Source: Bacteroidota bacterium
GTDB taxonomy: Bacteria > Bacteroidota > Bacteroidia > Palsa-965
Assembly (NCBI GenBank): GCA_013289095.1
Contig: JABDAO010000001.1
Coordinates: forward strand, 31,223-95,222
Reading direction: 5' to 3'
DNA: 64,000 nt
The notes beneath the pieces are model-generated. The model did not search any database. It saw only the letters and a list, made by a program, of their open reading frames with translations, and was not told where the DNA came from. Positions 11,242 to 49,631 of the stretch are shown here, piece by piece (the first letter of the stretch is position 1; every line of letters starts with the position of its first letter). The position numbers were made by a program, and so were the translations under genes.

Positions 11242-11738
11242 AGTTTCCGGTTGATTTAGAAAGACGAATATAGGAACAAACCCGCTGATCGGTATACGGA
11301 ACAACTGTCAGAATCACTCTTTTCAGGTCGCTTTGAGTATGATTTTTCTCAGGCTTATGAGTAGCGGGTCTACGCCTTCTTTAAATTCCTCATACTTCCC
11401 GGCCAAAATCCTGAAATGGCTGTCCATGAGATCAGCGATGGATCGGACTAAACTAATACCAACATTGGAGAATAGGGGGCAAGGTCAAAAGTTGGGGAGT
11501 AGCCGACTTTCTGTATCAAAAACGTGAGGACAAAGATCGTTTGAGTGAAAAAATTCGGTCAAGCCTCCGGCAGAATCGTGATCTAAATCAGCATTTTTGT
11601 TAAACATGCTCCGATTTGTAAAAAAACTGGTTTTCCAGGACTAAGAGTGATTTTAGGCACGGAAGTGATTAGAGGACGTGCATCTTTAATGGGTATTCAT
11701 TCTGTTTGCTTACCACGGCTTCCAAACCTTTTGCCATG

Positions 11739-11905
11739 TACTTCGGTTTGATTTACCCGTACTTCAAACCTTTTTTCCTTTACTTCGGTTTGATTTACCC
11801 GTACTTCAAACCTTTTTTCCTTTACTTCGGTTTGATTTACCTGTACTTCAAACCTTTTTACCCCGCCTTCGGTTTGATAACCATGGTCTTCAAACCTTTT
11901 GCCAT
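11739..11905. repeat. 42-bp tandem repeat, about 3.5 copies
   Basis: TACTTCGGTTTGATTTACCCGTACTTCAAACCTTTTTTCCTT recurs at 11739, 11781 and 11823, with a degenerate fourth copy. The ORF at 11706-11966 is a translation artefact of this repeat. Confidence 0.8.
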
Positions 11906-11919
11906 GGCTTTCAAAATCA

Positions 11920-11978
11920 GTAACCCCGCACTTAGAATACGGGGGATGTCATCCCCCGTATTCTAAGCGCGGGGTTAC
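11920..11978. repeat. Long near-perfect palindrome (27-bp arms, 5-nt spacer) built on a REP-like core
   Basis: GTAACCCCGCACTTAGAATACGGGGGA-tgtca-TCCCCCGTATTCTAAGCGCGGGGTTAC, with one mismatch between the arms. Confidence 0.85.
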
Positions 11979-12120
11979 TGATTAGGTCTGTGAGGCGAAA
12001 AATGGGAGAGGCAGAAACATTTCCGTTAATTAAATGACATTGCGCTAAAGCGCGGGGTCACTTATTTCAATACACTCCGTATTAAAGAATCATTGAACCC
12101 TATGACTGTCTGAAACATAC

Positions 12121-12345
12121 TAGCTGCACGCGTTTTAACCCGCATTTTTCAGTTGAAGATGGCTAACCCGCCAGCTCTCAGGAGCAGCGGCCTGCCTGCC
12201 GTAGCTTAGAGGCTTGCGCGACGGCAGGCAGGGATAACCCATCCCGATGAATATCGCGACTGCACAAAATCCAAACGCGCCGAACCCGCCCGGCCAGGGC
12301 ACGTCAGTGATTTGCCGTTCGGACGGGCAGTAGTGCACTACGTTT
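12121..12345. ncRNA. GC-rich structured island inside a 1.6 kb gene-free region; candidate small RNA or leader (class not identified)
   Basis: About 60% GC against a ~40% GC background. It contains a 12-bp perfect stem, CCTGCCTGCCGT...ACGGCAGGCAGG, and has no credible ORF. I found no tmRNA, RNase P or SRP hallmark motifs. Confidence 0.25.
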
Positions 12346-12887
12346 CTACTGTTCATTTTGGGTTTATCTAAAAAGGGTAAATCCCAGAAAATGACGTTGA
12401 CCCGAGAATAGAGGTAGGATGTAAGTAAGATTTAACGAGTAGGCCTGAACTGTGATTCTTGTGATTACAAAGATTGAATGATTAAAATGCTTTTCTGTTT
12501 GGCAATTAGTAAGATGCTACCCACCCGGTCAGATGCAATCAAAACCAGTATAAAATCAGGATAATCAACTCAATCATACCAATCACAGTTCAGACAGTTG
12601 TTACAGGCTGGGTTCAAGCTGATGCCGGACAGATCAAGGGCAGGAAGACAGAGGCTTTTGTGGGTGTCCGGATAGACACTTCCCGGCTTCGGATTGCCTC
12701 TATCCCGGTAGGCTAAGTGATTTCCCCGGAGTATGTTAAATCAATTTCAATCCTGAAGATCCGCTAAAACTGCGTTCCATCGCACAAAAATTTACAAAGC
12801 GGTATCTATATGAATTAATAATATGGAGTGAGATACTTGAAGGAATCTCTTTCATGTTCCCAAATCGCAACTTTAAAATTTCAAATC

Positions 12888-24589: not shown

Positions 24590-27500
24590 CTATTTCATCA
24601 GATTCAGCATCCCGGTATAAACATGTTTGTTGCCCTGGAAGTCGAGTACATTCACCCGGTAAACATAGACATCTATCTGGGAAATATTGGGGCCATGGTT
24701 GGCTCTTCCATCCCAGCCTTCATCCCATACCGTACTTTCGTACAACTCATTTCCCCAGCGGTCGAAAATGTATAAAGTATATTGGCTGAAATCAATTCCG
24801 ATCCCGTTCGGACGCCAGACATCGTTATGCCCATCGCCGTTTGGAGTAAAGGCATCGGGAGCATAGAATTCATATTCAGGCTGGATGCATACTTCCGAAT
24901 GTGTTGAATCTTTACATCCGAATGCGTTTTGAACGTACAGGGTCACCCGATAGCATCCTGTGTCCGGGTAGGTATAATGTGTATTCTGCAAAGTATCGCC
25001 GGCGTTGACCACATCACCGAAGTTCCACGTCCATTTGTTGGCTCCAATACTGGTATTTGTAAAAGCGATAGAGGGATTAACGATGGAGGCAACGGCAGGG
25101 GTAGCGTTAAATGCTGCGATCGGCACCGGAAATTCAGTCATGTATCCCGGCTTACTGGTAACCGAAGTACAACCATGAATATCTTGTATCGTCAGTCCGA
25201 CGGTAAAGAAGGTAGCCACGGTGTCAGAAGGGTAACAGTGGTGTATCACACCACAACCGCTGCCCGTCGTACCATCGCCAAACACCCACTGAGCGCTTTG
25301 ACAGGCCGGCGTGGAAGTGGCCTGGAAGTTGGCGCAGAGCGGCGAGCAGCCAATTGTATCGGTAGCTGTAAAGGAGATGATCGGAGGGGCATACAGGGTG
25401 ATGGTCACAAATGCCGAATCTGAAGGTGTGCCGCAGTTATCTGTCACATGTACCGTATAGGTGGTGGCAATGGCAGGTGTTGCAGTTGGGGTAGCTGTAT
25501 TGGCCCCGGTTAAATTTGCTCCGGGTGTCCATACATACGTGTATTGATTATCCCCACCTGTAGCGCTTGCAAAAAGCGCAGTGGAATTACCCGGACAGAT
25601 TGAGGTATCATTCGAGACCGCGACAGTAAGCGACGGGTTTACCGTTACCTGTACATTTACCAGGGTGCTTGCACACTGGTTGGCATCGGTACAAACAACC
25701 ATATAACTGGAGGTAACCAGGGGCGAAACAGGAGGCGTTACCGGGGCCCCGGCCGAATTGATCCAGGCATAGGTATAGCCAGGTGTGCCTCCAGCGCCTT
25801 GTGCAATAAGGGGGGTATTTTGCGAGATACAAATGGTAGCGGCAGTAGTGGTTACCGTCACCGCAGTCGGCTGGGTGATCTGTATGGTTTGAGCATTAAA
25901 ACAGCCACTTGCATCCTTGATCGTGCAGGTATAAAATCCTGCTCCCAAACCGGTGGCGGTAGCGGTAGTATTTCCGCCTGGCACCCATGAATAAGTGTAA
26001 GGTGCAGCGCCACCAACAACACCGGCAGTGGCAGACCCATTGATACCATTAAAACAGCTGTCGTTTACAGAGGCAAGGATGGAAACCGTAATGCCAGGGA
26101 GGTTATGCACGGTGGAGGTGTCATGTACCTGACAGTTTTTGGAATCGGTTACGGTGATGGTATAGACCCCGGGAACCAGATTGTCATAACCGGGTGTTGC
26201 ACTACCGGGCGTTGGAGTCCAGGAATAGGTGTAAGGCACGGTGCCACCGGCAACACTCACAGAATCGGAGCCATCGGGCAGGTTGCAATTTGCACTCTTC
26301 GGAAACAGGGTGAGCGCCATGGCAGCAGGCTGACCCACTACGGTAGTACCCGGAATGGTACATCCCGAGGCATCGGTAACCGTGATATTATAATTTCCTG
26401 CACAGATGTTATTGCAGCTCGGCGTGGTACAACCCGAATTCCAGGAATAAGTATACGGACTCGTACCTCCGGCAGGAATACAAATAAGCTGTCCGTTGCA
26501 CCCCCCGTTGCAACTGGCATTGATCCCTGCAACATTGATGGTCAGGGCAAGTGGTTGCAGGACGCTGTCGATTTGCGTAGCCGTACATCCTTTGGAATCG
26601 GTCATGGTGCAGGTATAATTACCGGCGCAAAGAGCTGTGGCCGAGGCGGCAGCGCCTCCGGATGGGGCCCAGGCATAGGTATAGGGAAGTGTGCCTCCGG
26701 TGGCGTTCACATTCGCCACACCATTACAGAGCCCGTTGCAGGTGATATTTGTTTTTGTTCCCGTACTTGCCAGTACGGCTGGCTGGTTGATATTTTGACT
26801 GGCCGAAACTTTACATCCGTTGGCATCGGTCACAGAAACAGTATACAAACCAAAGGTCAGTCCATTTTCTACATTCGTAATCCCGGCCCCGGGGGTCCAG
26901 GAATAAGTAAGAGGAGCCGCCCCACCGGTAACAGTAGCTGTGATGGAGCCATTGTTCCCCCCAAAACAGGTCACGTTTGTAAAGGCCGAAATGACCATCG
27001 TCGGGCCACCGGTATTGCTTACGTTTACGGTGGCCGTTTGCGAGCAACCGCCAGAAGTAACTGTTACGGAGTAGGCTCCTGCCGGAATATTAGTCAATGT
27101 GGCAGCAGTACCGGCAACCGGGCTCCAGGAATAGGTGAAAGGCCCGGCTCCGGGAGCTGTAACGGTGGCAGAGCCATCGCTCTGGCCACAGGTGGCTCCT
27201 ACAAACGAAGTAGTCAAGACGGGCGGTGCACCCACGGTAATCGTACTCGTGGCAGTGCCCGTACAAGCTCCGGCAGTTCCGGTAACGGTATAGGTAGTAG
27301 TACCTGTTGGTGTTGCAACAACCGTGGCGCCGGTTGAGGCGCTGAGTGTACCGGCCGGGCTCCAGCTATACGTTGTTGCCCCAGCGGCGGTAAGCGTTAC
27401 AGTGCCTCCTGGACAAACAGTGGAGGTAAGTGGGGTTACGGTAACAGGCGCTGCTCCTACGGTAACCGTGGCAGTAGCAGTACCGGTACAACCTCCGCTG

Positions 27501-28642
27501 GTTCCGGTAACAGTATAGGTAGTTGTCCCGTTAGGCGGGGTGGCTACAACGGTAGCGCCGGTTGATGAACTCAGGGTACCAGCCGGGCTCCAGCTATACG
27601 TAGTGGCTCCGGCAGCGGTGAGGCTAACGGTTCCTCCATTACACAAGGTGGTGGTTACAGGCGTCACCGTGACGGCTGTTCCGCCTACGGTTACGGTTAC
27701 ATTGCTGGTCAAATTTATCACAGAACCATCGCAACTTGTATTTTTAAGATTTGCTGTATATGTTGTGGTTGTAGTTGGACAAACGTTTATAGTGGGGGTT
27801 GTTCCGATGCTCGTTCCGGCTGCATTCGTCCAGTTTAAGGTATAGCTCGGAGCCCCTGTAGGCGAAAATCGCCAGCCTTCGTTGGTGGCCGACCATTGTG
27901 TACTGTTGCGTCCGGGCACGGTAACACAACTGGTATAGGTCGTATTCTGAATCCCTAAAATACCAGCCCCCGCATTCCAGCTGGCGCAGAGTGGCCTGCT
28001 TTGAATATAGACATCAATATAATTGGTTGTTTCGTTTAGTACACACTGCTGTGTAGCGATGAGGTTGTTGCAGGAATAATCGGGTACCACATCCCAGTTG
28101 ATGACAAACTGACGGCAGGGAGCAGTTCCATAGATAGCCCATGTAATATTGCCCGACACGGCCGGATCAATATCGACGTAGGGAGCCATAATATTGGTAG
28201 GGTAGCTTGAATTCGGGATCGGTCCGGGCGACTGGCTCCAGGGATCGGTGTTGTTGGCCTGGGTCAGATCGAATGTAATATCACCATTTGCACCAATCAC
28301 TAATTGATTATAGGAGGTGCCATAATAACAAAAGTTAAAGGGGATGTTAAGAACAGGTGAGAACCAATCATCAATTCCAATCAAAACTGCCGTTCCGGCA
28401 GTAAATGAAGTAGGATTATAGGGAATCGCCGCCACCGAATAAGAGGCCGTACCCAAAGTGCCCTGAACAGTGGTAGTAAGGTTGGTGCAATTTCCGGGAC
28501 AAACCGTAGAAGGGCTGCCAACAGCAATCGAGGCCGCAACTTCGGGACATCCCGTTGTCTGAGAATAAATCCCAAACGGGAGAAAAAGAAGGCACGCAAA
28601 CACGATGAGTTGCGCGACGAAGGAATGTCTTCCTGACTTCAT
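24590..28642 (-). CDS. Giant cell-surface adhesin-like protein: SprB repeats and Ig/PKD-like domains, with a T9SS type-B (gliding-motility-associated) C-terminal domain
   Basis: 1350 aa. Signal peptide MKSGRHSFVAQLIVFACLLFLPFG. At least eight SprB-type repeats (G..PYTYSW / TTYSWSP). A C-terminal ~90 aa matching the CHU_C / gliding C-terminal domain pattern (FTPNGDGHND...). A ~210-bp internal direct duplication. Confidence 0.8.
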   Translation of the reverse strand: MKSGRHSFVAQLIVFACLLFLPFGIYSQTTGCPEVAASIAVGSPSTVCPGNCTNLTTTVQGTLGTASYSVAAIPYNPTSFTAGTAVLIGIDDWFSPVLNIPFNFCYYGTSYNQLVIGANGDITFDLTQANNTDPWSQSPGPIPNSSYPTNIMAPYVDIDPAVSGNITWAIYGTAPCRQFVINWDVVPDYSCNNLIATQQCVLNETTNYIDVYIQSRPLCASWNAGAGILGIQNTTYTSCVTVPGRNSTQWSATNEGWRFSPTGAPSYTLNWTNAAGTSIGTTPTINVCPTTTTTYTANLKNTSCDGSVINLTSNVTVTVGGTAVTVTPVTTTLCNGGTVSLTAAGATTYSWSPAGTLSSSTGATVVATPPNGTTTYTVTGTSGGCTGTATATVTVGAAPVTVTPLTSTVCPGGTVTLTAAGATTYSWSPAGTLSASTGATVVATPTGTTTYTVTGTAGACTGTATSTITVGAPPVLTTSFVGATCGQSDGSATVTAPGAGPFTYSWSPVAGTAATLTNIPAGAYSVTVTSGGCSQTATVNVSNTGGPTMVISAFTNVTCFGGNNGSITATVTGGAAPLTYSWTPGAGITNVENGLTFGLYTVSVTDANGCKVSASQNINQPAVLASTGTKTNITCNGLCNGVANVNATGGTLPYTYAWAPSGGAAASATALCAGNYTCTMTDSKGCTATQIDSVLQPLALTINVAGINASCNGGCNGQLICIPAGGTSPYTYSWNSGCTTPSCNNICAGNYNITVTDASGCTIPGTTVVGQPAAMALTLFPKSANCNLPDGSDSVSVAGGTVPYTYSWTPTPGSATPGYDNLVPGVYTITVTDSKNCQVHDTSTVHNLPGITVSILASVNDSCFNGINGSATAGVVGGAAPYTYSWVPGGNTTATATGLGAGFYTCTIKDASGCFNAQTIQITQPTAVTVTTTAATICISQNTPLIAQGAGGTPGYTYAWINSAGAPVTPPVSPLVTSSYMVVCTDANQCASTLVNVQVTVNPSLTVAVSNDTSICPGNSTALFASATGGDNQYTYVWTPGANLTGANTATPTATPAIATTYTVHVTDNCGTPSDSAFVTITLYAPPIISFTATDTIGCSPLCANFQATSTPACQSAQWVFGDGTTGSGCGVIHHCYPSDTVATFFTVGLTIQDIHGCTSVTSKPGYMTEFPVPIAAFNATPAVASIVNPSIAFTNTSIGANKWTWNFGDVVNAGDTLQNTHYTYPDTGCYRVTLYVQNAFGCKDSTHSEVCIQPEYEFYAPDAFTPNGDGHNDVWRPNGIGIDFSQYTLYIFDRWGNELYESTVWDEGWDGRANHGPNISQIDVYVYRVNVLDFQGNKHVYTGMLNLMK

Positions 28643-29098
28643 TTATTCAAGGATAACTGGAGACGTTGGAATTACTATTGGTACTACAAGTTCGGAATAA
28701 AACAGAACAGCGCAAAGAGAATCAGTGTTTTTAGACGAACATCAATTATTTTATGACGAATCTCGTATTTTTTATGTCCAATATTGAGAATTGAAAAAAA
28801 AAACACGACTGATTTATGCATTCTATCCGGCAAAGCTTTATACAGCTAATTTTATAAGCAGCTGATTTCTACATCACTTTCTATTCCTTTGTACAGGAAA
28901 TGGGTCCAAGTTATTCGTCTGTTATTGTGAATTGGTGAAAATACCGCTGACATTTTTACTGCCGGAGACAGCGTATGTGTGCGGATTTCTCGTTTCAAAT
29001 CCTGAAGTTCAGAACTGATCTAATCATGGATTCGGTGGGTTCTGCATTCACTCCCTTATTTCAAAAGAAGTTTTTGTACAGCTACCGTTTTATCGGTA

Positions 29099-29389
29099 GT
29101 TAGGGTTCACTCAAAAGGTCGGCAATCTAGTGGAGGACTTTTTGAGTGAACACTAAGTAACCCCGCGCTTTAGCGCGGGGTATAAATACCCCACATCCGC
29201 GGGCTTTAGCCCAATAAGCATGCACCTGGCGTTCTCTTTTGGGCTGAAGCCCAACGTTCAAAGGGATGACATACCCCGCGCTAAAGCGCGGGGTTACTAA
29301 TTGATGCAGGTAACGTACCTTTTAATAGGTTGATAAATACACGCAAGGAAGCCTATCGTGTTCTGACTTTTTGAGTGAACCCTAATTAA
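29099..29389. mobile_element. MITE-like non-autonomous element with 17-bp terminal inverted repeats (TTAGGGTTCACTCAAAA) and two REP-like palindromes inside
   Basis: Left end TTAGGGTTCACTCAAAAGGTCGGCAATCTAGTGGAGGA (itself a hairpin with CTTTTTGAGTGAAC). Right end TTTTGAGTGAACCCTAA at 29369-29385. Interior carries ACCCCGCGCTTTAGCGCGGGGT and its partner. A second copy is at 47396-47729. Confidence 0.5.
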
Positions 29390-32185: not shown

Positions 32186-32448
32186 TGTAGAGCAAAGAAA
32201 CGAAATAATCACAAAGTACTGATGGTGTATGAACAATCGGTGTACCTGCCATTTCAAGCAGACTTCTCCTTCAGAAAACAGCGGCAGGCACACCCTGTTT
32301 TATTGTTTTTGAAGCTGTCCGCTCAACAACTCCCCAGATTGCCAACCTGTATCTCTGATGAAGGACCTCTATCTATAGATTGAGTGTGGGGTAATGTCAA
32401 AAGCTGGGGGGCAGAGATCGAATGACTGCTGCATGTTGGTCCAGCCAG

Positions 32449-33040
32449 AGACACGTTCCCCCGGGGTTCCCGACACATTCCCGAAGGTTCCCGACATGTT
32501 CCCTAAGCTTCCCGACATGTTTACTAAGCTTCCCGACATGTTCCCTTAGGTTCCCGACATGTTTCCTAAGCTTCCCGACACGTTCCCCAAGGTTCCCGAC
32601 ATGTTTACTAAGCTTCCCGACATGTTCCCCAAGCTTCCCGACATGTTTACTAAGCTTCCCGACATGTTCCCCAAGCTTCCCGACACGTTTACTAAGCTTC
32701 CCGACATGTTTACTAAGCTTCCCGACACGTTTACTAAGCTTCCCGACATGTTTACTAAGCTTCCCGACATGTTCCCCAAGCTTCCCGACATGTTCCCCAA
32801 GCTTCCCGACATGTTTACTAAGCTTCCCGACACGTTTACTAAGCTTCCCGACATGTTTACTAAGCTTCCCGACATGTTCCCCAAGGTTCCCGACATGTTT
32901 ACTAAGCTTCCCGACATGTTCCCTAAGCTTCCCGACATGTTCCCCAAGGTTCCCGACATGTTCCCTTAGTTTCCCGACATGTTCCCCGAGGTTCCTTACA
33001 CGTTCCCTGAGGTTCCCGACATGTTCCCCGAGGTTCCTGA
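32449..33040. repeat. 21-bp tandem repeat array of about 28 units, core TTCCCGACAYGTT with a 7-bp variable tail
   Basis: Units [C/G]TTCCCGACA[T/C]GTT[TACTAAG / CCCCAAG / CCCTAAG...] in head-to-tail order with degenerate edge units. Each carries an ACATGT palindrome. Four of six frames are open through the array: listed ORFs 32397-33062(-), 32422-33261(+), 32559-32969(+), 32546-32959(-). Confidence 0.92.
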
Positions 33041-33540
33041 TTCTTTCTCCTAATCGAATCACATTCTATACACACTTTATCACATTCTATCCAGTCTTTA
33101 TACCAAGCATTACAGTTTCCAGACACTTCTATACATCCTTTATCGGCTGCAGGAGAGCTTTCTCCCATTTAAAGGCTCATCCCGGGAGGCATCGGGTCTT
33201 TAAAATGACCAAGAAAAGGTATAAAACAGGTTACTCCCCGGAAAATGACTTTGACCCTTGAGTGTCTGCATCTATAGATGCAGCACAGATAATCACTTCC
33301 CTACATGCCGAAGCTCTGTCAATCACAACAGCAGACAGGTGTGACTAAAATCATTCAGTGATCATAACGTTCTCAATAAGGCGTGATTTGCAACACCGTT
33401 TCTCTCCATTTTGAAGACTTAAAGATAATTTCGGTGAGCATGTAGTCTTCGCTGAGCGTGCTTTTTATGCCATCAGACAACGATTGCCCTTCCTCAACTA
33501 ATTCCAAATCAATATCTTTGCGCCCAAATCCATCTCCAAC

Positions 33541-34802: not shown

Positions 34803-34891
34803 GGGCATCTCTAATAATCCCTTCCAAACATTCCCTCTCCTTGGGAGAGGGTCAGGGAGAGGTCAAGAAAACGGGGGTATTAGAGATGCCC
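34803..34891. repeat. ~90-bp hairpin element with GGGCATCTCTAATAA / TATTAGAGATGCCC termini (copy 1)
   Basis: Terminal 13-14-bp inverted repeats, an internal CCCTCTCC..GGAGAGGG stem, and a GGTCAGGGAGAGGTCAAG core. A near-identical copy sits at 45859-45948. Confidence 0.6.
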
Positions 34892-35095
34892 TTGATTAAA
34901 ATTCTGTTCCAGCAAACAAGTCTATTTCATATATTTGATAGTATCAAATGATACCATCATGATGATGAAAAGACCGTTCGCATTTATATTTCGCCGGACG
35001 GAAAAATAGTCAAAACAAGCTATACTGCCTGATTGGGCTCTGAACCGATGCTGTGCCTGGAGGATTCCAAGGTAGGTGGATAAAAAGCATGCCCC

Positions 35096-45858: not shown

Positions 45859-45948
45859 GGGCATCTCTGCTAATCTCTTCCAAACATTCCCTCCGCCCCT
45901 TGGAGAGGGTTAGGTGAGGTCAATAAAATGGGGTTGTTAGAGATGCCC
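45859..45948. repeat. ~90-bp hairpin element, copy 2 (GGGCATCTCTGCTAAT ... TTAGAGATGCCC)
   Basis: About 85% identical to 34803-34891, in the same orientation, in the lpxD/PP2C intergenic region. Confidence 0.6.
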
Positions 45949-46018
45949 TGGCGCTGCCACATTACCGCACACACGGTCTGGAGCCTTGCTCAGAATCCAA
46001 AAATAATAGTAGCCAGCT

Positions 46019-47251
46019 ATGTCAGAAGATACCCGGGGGAAAGAATCGGCTTCAAGACCGAAGATAAAAGACATCAAATTAAATTCTATCCTGGAGGTCA
46101 CCAAGGCCATCAACAATAATTTTTCGACCGAAAAACTGCTGGAGATCTTTGAAACCGTGTTAAAAGACCAGCTCAACATTGGCAAGCTCGTTCTTTTTAG
46201 TTACAACAGCGGTTGGAAATGCATCCTCAAATACGGCGTTGAAGACGAGATGGCCGCCATTGATGTGGCCAAAGAATTTGGCCAGATCAAAGAAATAAGC
46301 ACGATAGACTATACCTCGTCTGCAGCCCGTCATACCTTCGAAATTGTGGTGCCCGTATATCACAAATCAAGCCCTCTTGCCTATGTGCTCATCGGCGATT
46401 TGAACGAGGACAAGCTTGAGGTCAGCGCAGCCATCAAACACCTGCCCTTTGTGCAGACCCTGGCCAATATCATTGTAGTGGCCATCGAAAACAAAAAACT
46501 GGCAAAGGCAAACATACGCCAGGCCGCCATGAACAAAGAACTTGAGCTGGCTTCGGAAATGCAGAACATGCTTTTCCCCAGTACCCTGCCCAACAATGAA
46601 CGTTTGCAGATCAGCGCATTCTATCTGCCCCATCAGCAAGTTGGGGGCGATTATTATGATTTCATCCAGCTCGACGAAAACGAAGTGGCTTTTTGCATGG
46701 CCGATGTATCGGGCAAAGGAGTCCCGGCAGCGCTGCTCATGTCGAACTTCCAGGCCAATCTCCGCATCCTGTTGCATACCATGACCTCGCTCACCGATCT
46801 GGTCAAGGAACTTAACACCAAGGTGACACAAAATGCAAAGGGCGAAAAATTCATTACCCTCTTCATCGCCCGTTACAATATCCTGACACGGGTTCTGACC
46901 TATATCAATGCCGGGCATAACCCCCCGTTATTGGCTACAGAAAACAGCATTTCCCTGCTCCGCGTGGGGTGTACAGGCCTTGGAATGTTTGATGAACTGA
47001 GCAAAGTAAAAGAAGGCGTGGTAAGTGTTGACCCCGGTTCGGTTATCCTCTGTTATACCGATGGGGTGGTAGAGATAGAAAACGAAGCCGAAGAAGAGTT
47101 CGGAGTCAATTCTCTGCGTCAAACACTCCGTTCAAATTTCAAGCTGAATATGGAGACCCTCAACGACACTATTATTTCGGAAGTCATCAGGTACAAAGGC
47201 GATATGCCTTATATGGATGATATTGCACTGTTTAGTTGCAGGGTGTTTTAA
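46019..47251 (+). CDS. PP2C-family Ser/Thr phosphatase with an N-terminal sensor (GAF-like) domain (SpoIIE/RsbU-type)
   Basis: C-terminal PP2C motifs (GGDYYDF, MADVSGKGVPAALLMS, YTDGVVE). Confidence 0.85.
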   Translation: MSEDTRGKESASRPKIKDIKLNSILEVTKAINNNFSTEKLLEIFETVLKDQLNIGKLVLFSYNSGWKCILKYGVEDEMAAIDVAKEFGQIKEISTIDYTSSAARHTFEIVVPVYHKSSPLAYVLIGDLNEDKLEVSAAIKHLPFVQTLANIIVVAIENKKLAKANIRQAAMNKELELASEMQNMLFPSTLPNNERLQISAFYLPHQQVGGDYYDFIQLDENEVAFCMADVSGKGVPAALLMSNFQANLRILLHTMTSLTDLVKELNTKVTQNAKGEKFITLFIARYNILTRVLTYINAGHNPPLLATENSISLLRVGCTGLGMFDELSKVKEGVVSVDPGSVILCYTDGVVEIENEAEEEFGVNSLRQTLRSNFKLNMETLNDTIISEVIRYKGDMPYMDDIALFSCRVF

Positions 47252-47395
47252 GTATCCCATCCGATGATACCGATGTCTGCCATTCTATCCCGGCATACAG
47301 CACTCCGTTGCAATGGTTCGCCTTTGGCCAGGGCATCCGAAAAGACACCCTCCGTCTGGTTAAAGTTCGCAGATCTGTATCTGCATCCTTTACCC

Positions 47396-47729
47396 TATAT
47401 AGGGTTCACTCAAACACCTGCAACCATCACCCAATCAACACATCATGTCTCATTTTCATCATTGAGATGCAATACTAAATACCGTTTCCAATCAAAACCC
47501 TTGCACCAAGCAGTACGTGGACGAACGTTGTGTTCAAAGGAATTTTTGCTTTCACACATGCCCGCTCAAAGACCTGCCAGGTCTTTGCCGCTTTTTGCTT
47601 GCCCAACCCCGCCTGCCGACGCGCAGGAAGCTTGAGGGGCGGGGCAGGAAAGTAACGCAAAAAAGGCCTCACGCGGAGAGCGATTCGTCCTCCACTAGAT
47701 TGCCGACTTTTTGAGTGAACCCTAATTAA
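47396..47729. mobile_element. MITE-like element, copy 2 (TIRs TAGGGTTCACTCAAA / TTTGAGTGAACCCTAA)
   Basis: It shares the TIR and the adjacent GTCGGCAATCTAGTGGAGGA module (here reverse-complemented next to the right TIR) with 29099-29389. The interior differs and contains several GC-rich hairpins. Confidence 0.45.
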
Positions 47730-47785
47730 CTCATTATCATCAAATTACCGTTAAAAAAAATCAATTTGGAGCATTTCCACCCATT

Positions 47786-48034
47786 ATGCATGCAAAATGA
47801 CTTGAAATGCATGTATAATGATCCATTATTCTTGAATAATAGATTGAAATGCTTGCATACTGATTTAAAATGCATGCATAATGATCCTTTATTCTTGAAT
47901 AATGGATTGAAATGCATGCATAATGATCCTTTTTGCATGTATACTGGTTTGAAATGCATGCATAATGATCCTTTTTGCATGTATACTGGTTTGAAATGCA
48001 TGCATAATGATCCATTATGCTTCATTCGTAAACG
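47786..48034. repeat. AT-rich 42-bp tandem repeat array of about 6 units, each carrying ATGCATGCAT-type palindromes
   Basis: TTGAAATGCATGCATAATGATCCTTTTTGCATGTATACTGGT appears twice perfectly with four to five diverged units. GC is about 33% against the ~48% window average. Both strands give Cys/Met/His-rich repeat ORFs: 47766-48041(+) and 47726-48091(-). Confidence 0.8.
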
Positions 48035-48179
48035 TAAATGAACTGATCGGGGTTCGGAAACAAGGAAGACACATGAAGCACTACTGAACATGATTTGTCA
48101 GTACCTGAACATTCATCAGGAGAAACAGACAATTGAAGTTCAGAGAGCGTATTCCCGAAGAATAACCGAAGTATGTTCT

Positions 48180-49631
48180 TTACCCGGCTATCAGCCCGGG
48201 TGTTTTTTCCTCTGCAGATGCACCCCGGTGATAAATATCGGCCGCTACGAGGATAGCGATAAACCCCCAGAAGGGAACCGAGGCCTTGTCGGTATCCAGG
48301 AAATTGTTCAACCCTCCATGCACCATATACGTTACAAGACCCAGCAGCACAGCCAGGGTGGTGCTTCGCAGATCGCCTTTGGGAAGGCGGTAAAACAGTC
48401 TTGAACCGGTCCAGATGACACAGATAAGGATAGCCACAAACGAACCGGCTCCGAGCATTCCCGATTCGCAAAGCGGGCCTATGTATTCGCTGTGCGCATT
48501 GCCCTTGTTGCCGGCGTTGGTACTGATGCTTGTTTTCTCGCTCGATAACTGGAACGGGGCATATTGAAAACTATAGGTTCCGGGCCCCCATCCTAAAATG
48601 GGGCGTTCGTGAAACATACGCATGGCCGAATTCCAGCGGTTGAGTCGCTCCAGGTTTGAGGCATCGGTCGAAATATTTGAGATCGACTGAACGTGTTCGG
48701 TGAGGTTGGTGGAAGAATCCTGGCGGTTTTTTTCGAGCTTGCGTACAAGATCACCCCAAACCATAGCCAGGATGATGGCAATAGCAGCAGCGCTGATCAG
48801 TAACGTGCGGATCCCTACACGGAACATATAAATGAGCCACAAGGCAAGGGCAATCAGTAGGCTTACCCAGGCAGCACGTGTATACGAAAAGATAAGGGCA
48901 ACGGTAAAAATGCAGAAGAGGATGAGCGAAAAGATCCGGCCGCTGGGTGAGAGAGAGCGATTAAAAATAAACGATACCACGAGCGGGAAAAACATAGCCA
49001 AAATGGCCCCATAGGCAGTGTGGTCGTTAAAAAACGGGGCCATGACCCAGTGGGCAGGGTCTTCGCGGAACCCAAACTGGCTGTGGTTATACAGGGTATA
49101 CCCAATGACAATAACCAAGGGGATGATATACAACCAGATGAATCTACGGATTTGGGCTTGTTTTTGAAAAACCTGGACGGCAAGGAAATAAAAACAGGTC
49201 ACGAACCACAAACGGGCCAGCAGGAATTTGAATGAAATGACCGGCATCTCGCTGGTGACAGCAGTCACAAAAATCCAGCCCAGGTTTATCAGCAAGGCGA
49301 TGGTTACCGGGTGACGGATGATCCGCATATCGTATTTGCCTTCGTACAACATCTTGAAAAAATACAGAAGCATCACCCCGATCATCAGGGGTTCGGTTGG
49401 CAGGCTTAGCCCCAGCCTGAACTCGGGATCGGTAATAGTGATCGAGAGCGGGGTAAAAAAGACAATGATGAGCAGTAAGGTATCGACCGAAACAAAAGCG
49501 AGGTAGATAATGATGCAGACTACCGGCAGGAGGTTGAGCCAGTAGAATTCAAAAAAACAACAGAGGGTGTTGAGCACCACAAAAGCAGCGCTTAAACTAA
49601 AAATCCAGCGAAGTTTTAGGGTCTGGTTCAA
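48180..49631 (-). CDS. O-antigen ligase / Wzy_C-family polymerase-like membrane protein
   Basis: About 12 TM helices with a periplasmic loop bearing the YTRAAWVSLLIALALW motif, at 483 aa. Confidence 0.72.
   Translation of the reverse strand: MNQTLKLRWIFSLSAAFVVLNTLCCFFEFYWLNLLPVVCIIIYLAFVSVDTLLLIIVFFTPLSITITDPEFRLGLSLPTEPLMIGVMLLYFFKMLYEGKYDMRIIRHPVTIALLINLGWIFVTAVTSEMPVISFKFLLARLWFVTCFYFLAVQVFQKQAQIRRFIWLYIIPLVIVIGYTLYNHSQFGFREDPAHWVMAPFFNDHTAYGAILAMFFPLVVSFIFNRSLSPSGRIFSLILFCIFTVALIFSYTRAAWVSLLIALALWLIYMFRVGIRTLLISAAAIAIILAMVWGDLVRKLEKNRQDSSTNLTEHVQSISNISTDASNLERLNRWNSAMRMFHERPILGWGPGTYSFQYAPFQLSSEKTSISTNAGNKGNAHSEYIGPLCESGMLGAGSFVAILICVIWTGSRLFYRLPKGDLRSTTLAVLLGLVTYMVHGGLNNFLDTDKASVPFWGFIAILVAADIYHRGASAEEKTPGLIAG

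What the first reader, a model, noticed from the sequence alone, without database searches (positions are those of the whole stretch)
47252..48179. 930-bp gene-free convergent intergenic region with an AT-rich 42-bp tandem array of ATGCATGCAT palindromes that also encodes Cys/Met/His-rich repeat peptides
Two convergent genes, a PP2C phosphatase ending at 47251 and an O-antigen-ligase-like gene ending at 48180, are separated by 930 bp. That is unusually long for this otherwise compact window. The right half (47786-48034) is a ~33% GC array of a 42-bp unit (four helical turns), TTGAAATGCATGCATAATGATCCTTTTTGCATGTATACTGGT. Two copies are perfect and four to five are diverged. Each unit contains an ATGCATGCAT-type palindrome and a second TGCATGTA half-site. 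On the plus strand it reads as a 91-aa ORF (47766-48041) with a repeated 14-aa module LKCMHNDPFCMYTG / LKCMHNDPLFLNNG and a basic tail FIRKRK. The minus strand gives KGSLCMHFKPVYMQ repeats. A repeated Cys/Met/His core resembles multi-core peptide precursors or a metal-binding peptide. I see no modifying enzyme nearby and the codon usage is atypically AT-rich, so a non-coding role (regulator-binding array or horizontally acquired remnant) is at least as likely.
Basis: partly seen in the sequence, partly recalled or inferred. Interest (0 to 1): 0.55.

Follow-up and report, generated by a model that had tools for sequence, protein, structure and literature searches.

The report
Orphan AT-rich minisatellite in inserted DNA
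The repeat array is real, but it is most likely non-coding junk-type DNA (a 21-bp palindromic minisatellite next to a small mobile element) that landed between two conserved genes in this one lineage. The odd Cys/Met/His "peptides" are a by-product of the DNA palindrome ATGCATGCAT.

Summary
Window 47786-48037 has about 12 head-to-tail units of a 21-bp motif, organised as 42-bp and 63-bp super-units, at 31% GC. It lies in a 928-bp gap between a SpoIIE/PP2C gene and a Wzy_C gene.

The main new result is comparative. The convergent gene pair is conserved in more than 90 related Bacteroidia loci, and the ten closest (83-87% aa identity) have a gap of -9 to 36 bp. So the whole 47252-48179 block is a lineage-specific insertion. 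It sits between the PP2C stop codon and what looks like its old terminator.

The block also holds a 325-bp MITE-like element (47400-47724), with a second copy at 29101-29389.

The coding idea fails every test I could run:
- no true homologue in 5.8 billion or 1.84 billion proteins
- negative codon-usage scores in all three open frames
- a neutral synonymous fraction
- no Bacteroidetes -7 promoter box
- no tailoring enzyme within about 11-13 kb

The Cys/Met/His richness follows from ATGCATGCAT in any frame on either strand.

Best reading (about 0.7): a neutral or selfish minisatellite of quasi-palindromic units that expanded by slippage. A protein-binding array is not excluded (about 0.1).

One oddity is unexplained: the three largest gaps in the window each carry an unrelated 21-bp-period array.

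The parts
46019..47251 (+). SpoIIE/PP2C-type phosphatase gene, the left flank. It is conserved and collinear in relatives.
   Evidence: Pfam PF07228, E=1.4e-42. 83-87% aa identity in the ten closest loci.
47252..48179 (.). Lineage-specific 928-bp insertion between the PP2C stop codon and the 3' end of the Wzy_C gene.
   Evidence: The ten closest relatives have -9 to 36 bp here. No similarity to any relative across 47250-48224.
47252..47399 (.). Unique 148-bp segment of the insertion (GC 0.51). Origin unknown.
   Evidence: No match in the window, the loci, plasmids or phages. Confirmed in Logan contig L001.
47400..47724 (.). MITE-like element with perfect 15-bp terminal inverted repeats, TAGGGTTCACTCAAA.
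   Evidence: Inverted repeat I9. Its 38-nt right end matches the left end of a second copy at 29101-29138 with one mismatch. The short-read contig breaks at 47429.
47567..47597 (+). Terminator-like hairpin plus T-run inside the MITE. It is the first candidate stop for PP2C read-through.
   Evidence: Consensus scan only.
47725..47785 (.). AT-rich linker (GC 0.28) containing an A8 run. It ends in the half-palindrome CATTATGCATGCA, which leads into the array.
   Evidence: (I11-I13).
47786..48037 (.). Minisatellite of 12 units of 21 bp, each a roughly 20-bp quasi-palindrome around an ATGCATGCAT-type core. It has 42-bp and 63-bp higher-order repeats and degenerate end units.
   Evidence: Single-strand folds give z = -7.9 (RNA +), -7.5 (RNA -) and -7.9 (DNA).
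47912..47995 (.). Two identical 42-bp copies, the most recent duplication in the array.
48038..48179 (.). Unique 142-bp segment of the insertion (GC 0.42). Origin unknown.
   Evidence: Present in Logan contig L085, which ends at 48041. No match elsewhere.
48181..48212 (+). Hairpin plus T-run overlapping the last codons of the Wzy_C gene. Probably the ancestral PP2C terminator, now 930 bp from the PP2C stop.
   Evidence: Terminator scan. In relatives the homologous ACCCGGCT... spacer, or other hairpin/T-run sequences, directly follows the PP2C stop. That it functions as a terminator is an inference.
48180..49631 (-). Wzy_C (O-antigen ligase/polymerase-like) gene, the right flank.
   Evidence: Pfam PF04932, E=1.6e-20. 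Called as 466 aa in the Logan contig.

Best explanation
The region is a lineage-specific block of non-coding repetitive DNA. About 0.93 kb of foreign or mobile sequence was inserted exactly between the PP2C stop codon and its terminator, at a convergent gene junction where an insertion does little harm.

One part is a MITE copy. Another part is an AT-rich stretch in which a roughly 20-bp quasi-palindrome was duplicated in three steps:
1. a 21-bp unit
2. a 42-bp pair of diverged units
3. 63-bp and 42-bp blocks

The likely mechanism is replication slippage or unequal recombination. The hairpins that the palindromic cores can form on single strands probably helped. The array has no protein product. 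The three open frames and their Cys/Met/His repeats are side effects of a stop-free 21-bp unit built around ATGCATGCAT.

The only likely consequence is passive. The array is probably read through as a long, strongly self-pairing 3' tail of the PP2C and/or Wzy_C transcripts.

Shown: the insertion, the MITE, the unit anatomy and the lack of coding signal. Inferred: the slippage mechanism, the neutrality and the read-through.
For: Insertion:
- The gene pair is conserved and convergent in more than 90 loci. The gap is -9 to 36 bp in the ten closest. In 14 kb of otherwise collinear synteny, 47250-48224 is the only large difference.
- No array was found downstream of PP2C in any of 138 loci.

Repeat-rich context:
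- A MITE with a second copy lies 18 kb away.
- Short-read contigs break at the MITE and at the array edge.

Minisatellite anatomy:
- No indels, hierarchical 21/42/63 periods, two identical copies in the core and degenerate edge units.

No coding signal:
- No hit for the + 91-aa or the - 121-aa ORF among 5.8e9 proteins.
- The 62 phmmer hits in 1.84e9 representatives are other translated heptad-period repeats at 17-52% identity.
- Codon log-likelihood is -0.16 to -0.39 per codon, against +0.15 to +0.46 for 29 genes. GC3 is 0.26-0.37, against 0.49-0.65.
- The synonymous share of unit variants is at most 3/17 in every frame, close to the 0.16-0.18 expected without selection.
- None of four candidate products is on record as a called gene.
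- There is no TAnnTTTG box in the gap on either strand, although 16 of 37 genes have one within 200 nt.

No known RNA family or tRNA.
Against: - Absence of function cannot be shown from sequence.
- Every unit keeps a dyad-symmetric core in the same register. 72% of cells pair, against 28-50% when the register is slid. Two pairs change on both sides. This could mean selection for a dimer-binding site or a hairpin. However, the shuffle control is weak (30/500), and template switching at quasi-palindromes gives the same pattern without selection.
- The exact two-helical-turn period is shared with two unrelated arrays in the same window. Pure neutrality does not explain that.
- No second strain exists to show copy-number drift. 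The PP2C protein is a singleton at 90% identity among about 15 billion proteins.
- The copy number of the perfect 42-mers could be collapsed in the assembly.
Confidence: 0.7

Rival explanations
1. Cis-acting protein-binding array. About 12 dyad-symmetric sites at exactly 21-bp (two-turn) spacing would place a dimeric DNA-binding protein on one face of the helix, as in plasmid iterons or the sopC centromere of F. The array would act as a recruitment, silencing or structural site.
For: - Each unit has a 10-20 bp quasi-palindrome in a fixed register.
- Positions 1-14 of the unit are conserved and positions 15-21 are variable.
- There are no indels over 12 units.
- The array is AT-rich.
- Two other arrays in the window share the 21-bp period.
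Against: - No partner gene. There is no Par, Rep or obvious regulator within about 11-13 kb, or among the window genes scanned. The region is housekeeping chromosome.
- The array is absent from all relatives, so it serves no conserved function.
- The motif is not enriched elsewhere in the window.
- It sits between two 3' ends, not at a promoter.
- There is no DnaA-box cluster and no GC-skew switch.
- Covariation is not significant.
Confidence: 0.12
2. Functional structured RNA. The array would be transcribed, as a 3' UTR of PP2C or Wzy_C or as its own sRNA, and its long imperfect hairpin would act as an RNA stabiliser, a terminator, a dsRNA source or a protein sponge.
For: - Very stable folds on both strands: z = -7.9 and -7.5, with 0 of 100 shuffles as good.
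- The PP2C terminator-like hairpin now lies beyond the array, so read-through is plausible.
- The G-C, G-T and T-A variants at core pair 3/8 are all allowed pairs on the + strand.
Against: - Any tandem array of palindromes folds this well, so the z-score is not evidence of selection.
- No Rfam match and no promoter box.
- A terminator-like hairpin inside the MITE at 47567-47597 may stop PP2C transcripts before they reach the array.
- There is no conservation outside this genome.
Confidence: 0.08
3. Small repeat protein: a multi-core RiPP precursor or a metal-binding Cys/Met/His peptide, encoded by the 91-aa + ORF or by one of the minus-strand ORFs.
For: - Three frames are open across the array.
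- The + frame shows 5 synonymous against 12 non-synonymous differences between higher-order blocks, slightly above the 16% expected.
Against: - A stop-free 21-bp unit makes open frames automatic.
- The residue bias is dictated by ATGCATGCAT on both strands.
- No true homologues.
- Negative codon scores and low GC3.
- Unit-variant synonymous fraction is at the neutral level in all frames.
- No promoter box. None of the four candidate ORF products tested is on record as a called gene.
- No radical-SAM, YcaO, lanthipeptide or other tailoring gene within about 11-13 kb. The only radical-SAM ORF is 46 kb away.
Confidence: 0.03
4. Assembly artefact. The interior of the gap (47430-48040) would be mis-assembled or chimeric repeat sequence.
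For: - Independent short-read contigs stop at both repeat borders and do not cover the interior.
- The 65-nt exact offset-42 repeat cannot be resolved by short k-mers.
Against: - Both outer flanks of the insertion (47252-47429 and 48041-48179) are reproduced at 100% identity in the independent assembly. They are themselves absent from relatives, so an insertion is real.
- The array units are diverged in an ordered, hierarchical way that assemblers do not invent.
- At most the copy number of the two perfect 42-mers is uncertain.
Confidence: 0.03

Closest known systems
Bacterial intergenic minisatellites / VNTRs, e.g. mycobacterial MIRUs (from general knowledge, not retrieved here)
   Same: Head-to-tail repeats of tens of bp in intergenic DNA. 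The unit length is a multiple of 3, so small open frames run through them. Evolution is hierarchical and homogenised, and they are lineage-specific.
   Different: MIRUs are a dispersed family with about 40 loci per genome and lie inside operons. This unit was seen at one locus only, between convergent 3' ends. It is AT-rich and palindromic. Copy-number polymorphism could not be tested.
REP / BIME clusters of enterobacteria and pseudomonads (from general knowledge)
   Same: Arrays of imperfect palindromic units in extragenic regions at gene 3' ends, often between convergent genes. They form hairpins in RNA and can be read through as 3' UTR structures.
   Different: REPs are GC-rich, 35-40 bp, alternate in orientation, occur hundreds of times per genome and are tied to a RAYT transposase. 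Here the units are AT-rich, 21 bp, all in direct orientation and at a single locus in 64 kb. No RAYT-like gene was found in the window.
Pneumococcal BOX elements (boxA-boxB(n)-boxC) (from general knowledge)
   Same: A small non-autonomous mobile element associated with a tandemly repeated module of about 45 bp. It is intergenic and strongly self-pairing.
   Different: In BOX the repeated module lies inside the element. Here the array begins 61 bp outside the right terminal repeat of the MITE, and the second MITE copy (29101-29389) has no such array.
sopC centromere of plasmid F (twelve 43-bp direct repeats, each with a short inverted repeat bound by SopB) and plasmid iterons (17-22 bp) (from general knowledge)
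   Same: Tandem direct repeats of about 42 bp or 21 bp, each carrying a dyad-symmetric core in phase with the helix. AT-rich surroundings.
   Different: There is no parA/parB or rep gene and no replicon context. The array is embedded in housekeeping chromosome that is collinear with relatives lacking it.

Membership tests
Bacterial minisatellite / VNTR | Head-to-tail repeats of a 10-100 bp unit, more than chance would give | tested here: met
   TRF scores 124-260. 12 units of 21 bp with no indel. A 65-nt exact offset-42 match.
Bacterial minisatellite / VNTR | No protein-coding constraint on the repeat | tested here: met
   Negative codon scores, neutral synonymous fraction and no homologues.
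Bacterial minisatellite / VNTR | Copy number varies between strains | not testable with these tools
   The species is seen once. The PP2C protein is a singleton 90% cluster, and the 20-mer of the unit is absent from JGI metagenome contigs.
MITE (for 47400-47724) | Short element bounded by terminal inverted repeats, with no transposase | tested here: met
   15-bp perfect terminal inverted repeats spaced 295 bp apart. No ORF with a Pfam hit.
MITE (for 47400-47724) | Several copies in the genome | tested here: met
   A second copy at 29101-29389 shares 38-42 nt ends at 95-100% identity. The short-read contig breaks inside it.
MITE (for 47400-47724) | Target-site duplication | tested here: inconclusive
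   The flanks read TA/TTA-like at both copies, but no clear duplication was seen.
MITE (for the array itself) | The array lies inside the terminal repeats of the element | tested here: not met
   No further terminal-repeat copy with 4 or fewer mismatches in 47200-48300. The array starts 61 bp beyond the right repeat.
REP/BIME | Palindromic units in extragenic 3' regions | tested here: met
   72% of unit cells pair in register. The location is between two 3' ends.
REP/BIME | Many dispersed copies of the unit, plus a RAYT gene | tested here: not met
   The core motif occurs outside the array at chance level in 64 kb. No transposase-like Pfam hit in the window. The rest of the genome is not available.
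sopC-type centromere / plasmid iterons | Tandem direct repeats with a dyad-symmetric core at helical phasing | tested here: met
sopC-type centromere / plasmid iterons | Adjacent parA/parB or rep gene, on a plasmid or other mobile replicon | tested here: not met
   The neighbours are lpxC/A/D, efp, SpoIIE, Wzy_C, Wzz-like, a flippase and others. The region is collinear with relatives' chromosomes. No plasmid or phage match.
Chromosomal replication origin | DnaA-box cluster and a GC-skew switch | tested here: not met
   15 boxes with 1 or fewer mismatches against 15.4 expected, none in the gap. No skew inflection.
RiPP multi-core precursor | Tailoring enzyme gene nearby | tested here: not met
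   None within about 11-13 kb on either side.
RiPP multi-core precursor | Expressed, selected ORF with homologues | tested here: not met
CRISPR array | Identical repeats separated by unique spacers, plus cas genes | tested here: not met
   The 'spacers' are themselves repeated and related to the repeats. The period is only 21/42 bp. No cas gene was seen.

The most novel reading that the evidence does not exclude
The array is one of a set of unrelated 21-bp-period arrays. The three largest intergenic gaps of this window each carry one, and there are none in about 1.2 Mb of relatives' loci. This set could reflect a dedicated process or a protein in this lineage. One example would be a DNA-binding or nucleoid protein that selects for, or a repair or recombination activity that generates, dyad-symmetric sites spaced exactly two helical turns apart. 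The ATGCATGCAT array would then be a functional cis-element rather than junk.
Probability: 0.1. Interest if true: 0.55.

Novelty: new member of a known kind. Interest (0 to 1): 0.22.

Why it matters
The practical value is as a caution. A Cys/Met/His-rich repeat 'peptide' can be produced simply by translating a palindromic DNA repeat, so such ORFs should not be taken as RiPP or metal-binding candidates without coding evidence.

The locus also gives a clean example of how a tight convergent gene junction grows. Insertion occurred exactly between a stop codon and its terminator. A MITE is also present in the block, and a minisatellite expanded there. The order of these events was not determined.

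The one point of wider interest is the recurrence of the 21-bp period in three unrelated arrays of the same genome. If it holds genome-wide, it would point to a lineage-specific mechanism or binding protein.

Tried and rejected
- **Known RNA families and tRNA/tmRNA:** nothing at gathering scores. Only junk eukaryotic miRNA/snoRNA hits appear at E-value thresholds.
- **Homologues of the + 91-aa and - 121-aa ORFs:** none. The 62 phmmer hits are other translated heptad-period repeats (CVHNEAV, ACIDNES, LSCLHPD and similar), not relatives.
- **Exact look-ups of four candidate products:** none is on record as a called gene.
- **Unit 20-mer in JGI metagenome contigs:** 0 hits. Looser unit patterns in IMG/VR gave only three single chance hits.
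- **Whole insertion against plasmids and phages (blastn):** no match.
- **Insertion against the genes that fill the same gap in distant relatives (tblastx/blastn):** nothing.
- **A TGCATGNATAATGA match in relatives:** it turned out to be the conserved CMDNE codons of efp, a coincidence.
- **A 9-bp direct repeat GGGTGTTTT at 47241 and 48198:** considered as a target-site duplication and rejected. Removing the sequence between the copies would destroy the conserved PP2C stop, and the right copy is part of the ancestral terminator.
- **oriC, centromere/iteron, CRISPR and RiPP readings:** each fails a defining feature (see the membership test).
- **Literature searches for the motif and for 21-bp intergenic repeats:** nothing relevant.
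- **MITE end and array-2 unit in IMG/VR:** 0 hits.

Full report
**1. The observation**

TRF reports three nested periods: 21 bp (10.8 copies), 42 bp (4.1 copies, 89% matches, score 260) and 63 bp (2.3-2.5 copies).

In a 21-nt register, 12 units run from 47786 to 48037 without a single indel. They fall into several forms:
- an A form, ATGCATGCATAATGATCC(T/A)TT
- B forms, TTGCATGTATACTGGTTTGAA and ATTCTTGAATAAT(G/A)GATTGAA
- degenerate units at both ends

The 42-mers 47912-47953 and 47954-47995 are identical, and the exact offset-42 match is 65 nt long. GC is 0.31, against 0.477 for the window. The flanking genes are a SpoIIE/PP2C phosphatase and a Wzy_C protein.

Two details need correction. 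The base unit is 21 bp, not 42. The window is not otherwise compact: six gaps exceed 800 bp and this one ranks third.

**2. The gap is an insertion**

I fetched 80 genome loci and 53 metagenome loci that encode relatives of the PP2C protein. All are uncultured Bacteroidia. The convergent PP2C/Wzy_C pair is conserved in more than 90 of them.

In the ten closest (83-87% aa identity) the distance between the ends of the two protein matches is -9 to 36 bp. In L040 the two ORFs overlap. Across 14 kb the window is collinear with these ten loci. The only large block with no counterpart is 47250-48224.

Junction alignments show the following:
- In relatives, the PP2C stop is followed directly by a short spacer with a hairpin and T-run.
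- In the window, the homologous piece (TACCCGGCTATCAGCCCGGGTG + TTTTTT, 48181-48212) sits at the Wzy_C end.

So about 928 bp (47252-48179) entered exactly between the PP2C stop codon and what was probably its terminator. The terminator function is inferred.

More distant relatives with large gaps at this junction carry ordinary protein genes there. Those genes are unrelated to this insertion.

**3. What the insertion contains**

- **47400-47724** is a MITE-like element with perfect 15-bp terminal inverted repeats. Its 38-nt right end matches the left end of another copy at 29101-29389 with one mismatch.
- **The array** starts 61 bp to the right of the MITE and lies outside its terminal repeats.
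- **The remaining segments** (47252-47399 and 48038-48179) match nothing in the window, the loci, plasmids or phages.
- **Independent Logan contigs** from run SRR8422484 are 100% identical to the flanks. They end at 47429 (inside the MITE) and at 48041 (the array edge). This is what repeats do to short-read assemblies. It confirms the outer parts of the insertion but leaves the interior supported by this contig only.

**4. Coding tests**

Three of the six frames are open. That is automatic for a stop-free 21-bp unit.

The Cys/Met/His bias is also automatic. ATGCATGCAT reads M-H-A, C-M-H or A-C-(M/I) in its three frames. Because it is a palindrome, it reads the same on the other strand.

| Test | Result |
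|---|---|
| + 91-aa and - 121-aa ORFs against 5.8 billion proteins | no hit |
| phmmer against 1.84 billion representatives | 62 hits at E <= 1e-3, all other translated heptad-period repeats, 17-52% identity |
| Four candidate products on record as called genes | none |
| Codon log-likelihood per codon | -0.28, -0.39, -0.16 for the three ORFs; +0.15 to +0.46 for 29 window genes |
| GC3 | 0.26-0.37 for the ORFs; 0.49-0.65 for genes |
| Synonymous changes among unit variants | at most 3 of 17 in any frame; 16-18% expected without selection |
| Bacteroidetes -7 box TAnnTTTG | within 200 nt upstream of 16 of 37 genes; absent from the whole gap on both strands |
| RiPP-type enzyme | none within about 11-13 kb on either side |

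I therefore reject the peptide reading.

**5. DNA- and RNA-level features**

Each unit is a quasi-palindrome in a fixed register. With a 10-pair dyad, 72% of cells pair, against 28-50% when the register is slid by 1-3 columns.

Two pairs change on both sides: G-C to T-A at core positions 3/8, and T-A to C-G at the outer pair. The shuffle control is weak (30 of 500 shuffles reach the observed covariation score). Template switching at quasi-palindromes would give the same result without selection.

The array folds into long imperfect hairpins on either strand. The z-scores are -7.9 and -7.5 as RNA and -7.9 as DNA. This is expected for tandem palindromes.

There is no Rfam match, no tRNA, no DnaA-box cluster and no GC-skew switch. 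The window is housekeeping chromosome (gyrB, murB, mdh, aroB, lpxC/A/D, efp). No transposase, Par, Rep or cas gene appeared among the ORFs scanned.

**6. Interpretation**

Best reading (0.7): a neutral or selfish minisatellite that expanded by slippage or unequal exchange inside a lineage-specific insertion. That insertion also holds a MITE.

The hierarchical 21/42/63 structure, the identical central copies and the decayed edges fit this reading. The likely passive effect is that PP2C and/or Wzy_C transcripts now carry a long self-pairing tail, unless the hairpin inside the MITE (47567-47597) stops them first. That effect is an inference.

Rivals:
- protein-binding array, 0.12
- functional RNA, 0.08
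- peptide, 0.03
- assembly artefact of the interior, 0.03

**7. Comparison with known kinds**

- It behaves like a bacterial intergenic minisatellite (MIRU/VNTR type).
- It shares with REP/BIME clusters the palindromic units at convergent 3' ends.
- It is not a member of REP/BIME, because it is a single locus with no RAYT.
- It is not a sopC/iteron array, because there is no par or rep gene and no replicon.
- It is not a CRISPR array or a RiPP precursor.

The sequence family itself is new, with no match anywhere I could search. The kind is known.

**8. What remains odd**

All three arrays of the window have a 21-bp base period but unrelated sequences:
- 11700-11906, 42 = 2x21
- 32467-33028, 21 bp x 26.8
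- this array

They occupy the three largest intergenic gaps. TRF found no array of 21- or 42-bp period in about 1.2 Mb of relatives' loci.

This is a post hoc observation on three cases. It is the only reason the score is not lower.

Noticed in passing
window 32467-33028 (ORF 32397-33062, minus strand): 27 tandem copies of the 21-bp unit TTCCCGACATGTT(TAC/CCC)(T/C)AAGC lie in the 1.25-kb divergent gap between aroB and a proline dehydrogenase gene. One minus frame reads as perfect heptads (LSKHVGK / LGEHVGK, with V and L at core positions) in a 221-aa ORF that hits many coiled-coil Pfam models. Its codon score is weakly positive (+0.08). The only database hit is a 48-bit match to a similar repeat in a coral-metagenome contig (L139).
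   Followed up: partly
window 11700-11906 and 11915-11983: A 42-bp (2x21) tandem array of about 5 copies (TTCGGTTTGATTTACCCGTAC TTCAAACCTTTTTTCCTTTAC) lies in the largest gap of the window (1583 bp). It is followed directly by a 34-nt-arm, 97% complementary hairpin.
   Followed up: no
window 11305-12887, 32294-33540, 47252-48179: The three largest intergenic gaps of the window each hold an unrelated tandem array with a 21-bp base period. TRF found no array of 21- or 42-bp period in about 1.2 Mb of relatives' loci.
   Followed up: partly
window 29097-29389: A second, composite copy of the TAGGGTTCACTCAAA MITE. Its left end is followed at once by an inverted partial end (29136-29160). The interior carries a pair of REP-like hairpins.
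   Followed up: partly
window 29151-29183, 29271-29303, 12042-12066 (related: 11915-11983): A GC-rich REP-like hairpin family, (T)AACCCCGCGCTTTAGCGCGGGGT(T)A, recurs in long intergenic regions.
   Followed up: no
window 34803-34892 and 45859-45949: A palindromic element of about 90 bp (GGGCATCTCTAATA ... TATTAGAGATGCCC) is present twice. The second copy is just upstream of the PP2C gene, in a spacer about 200 bp longer than in relatives. The Logan contig with PP2C appears to end inside the first copy.
   Followed up: partly
window 48181-48212: A hairpin plus T-run on the + strand overlaps the last codons of the minus-strand Wzy_C gene. Relatives have similar hairpin/T-run sequences directly after the PP2C stop. 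The terminator seems to be embedded in the neighbour's C-terminal coding sequence, and here it is displaced by 930 bp.
   Followed up: partly
loci L091, L096, L011/L098, L092/L093, L068-L071, L075, L080 (gap after the PP2C gene): In more distant relatives the same convergent junction holds different inserted protein-coding genes (for example a 271-aa lipoprotein-like ORF and a roughly 290-aa ORF). The junction is therefore a recurrent landing site.
   Followed up: partly
window 24590-28642 (minus strand), repeats at 25680-27700: A 1350-aa ORF contains 228-bp (76-aa) tandem domain repeats. This looks like ordinary repeat-domain protein coding and is unrelated to the finding.
   Followed up: no
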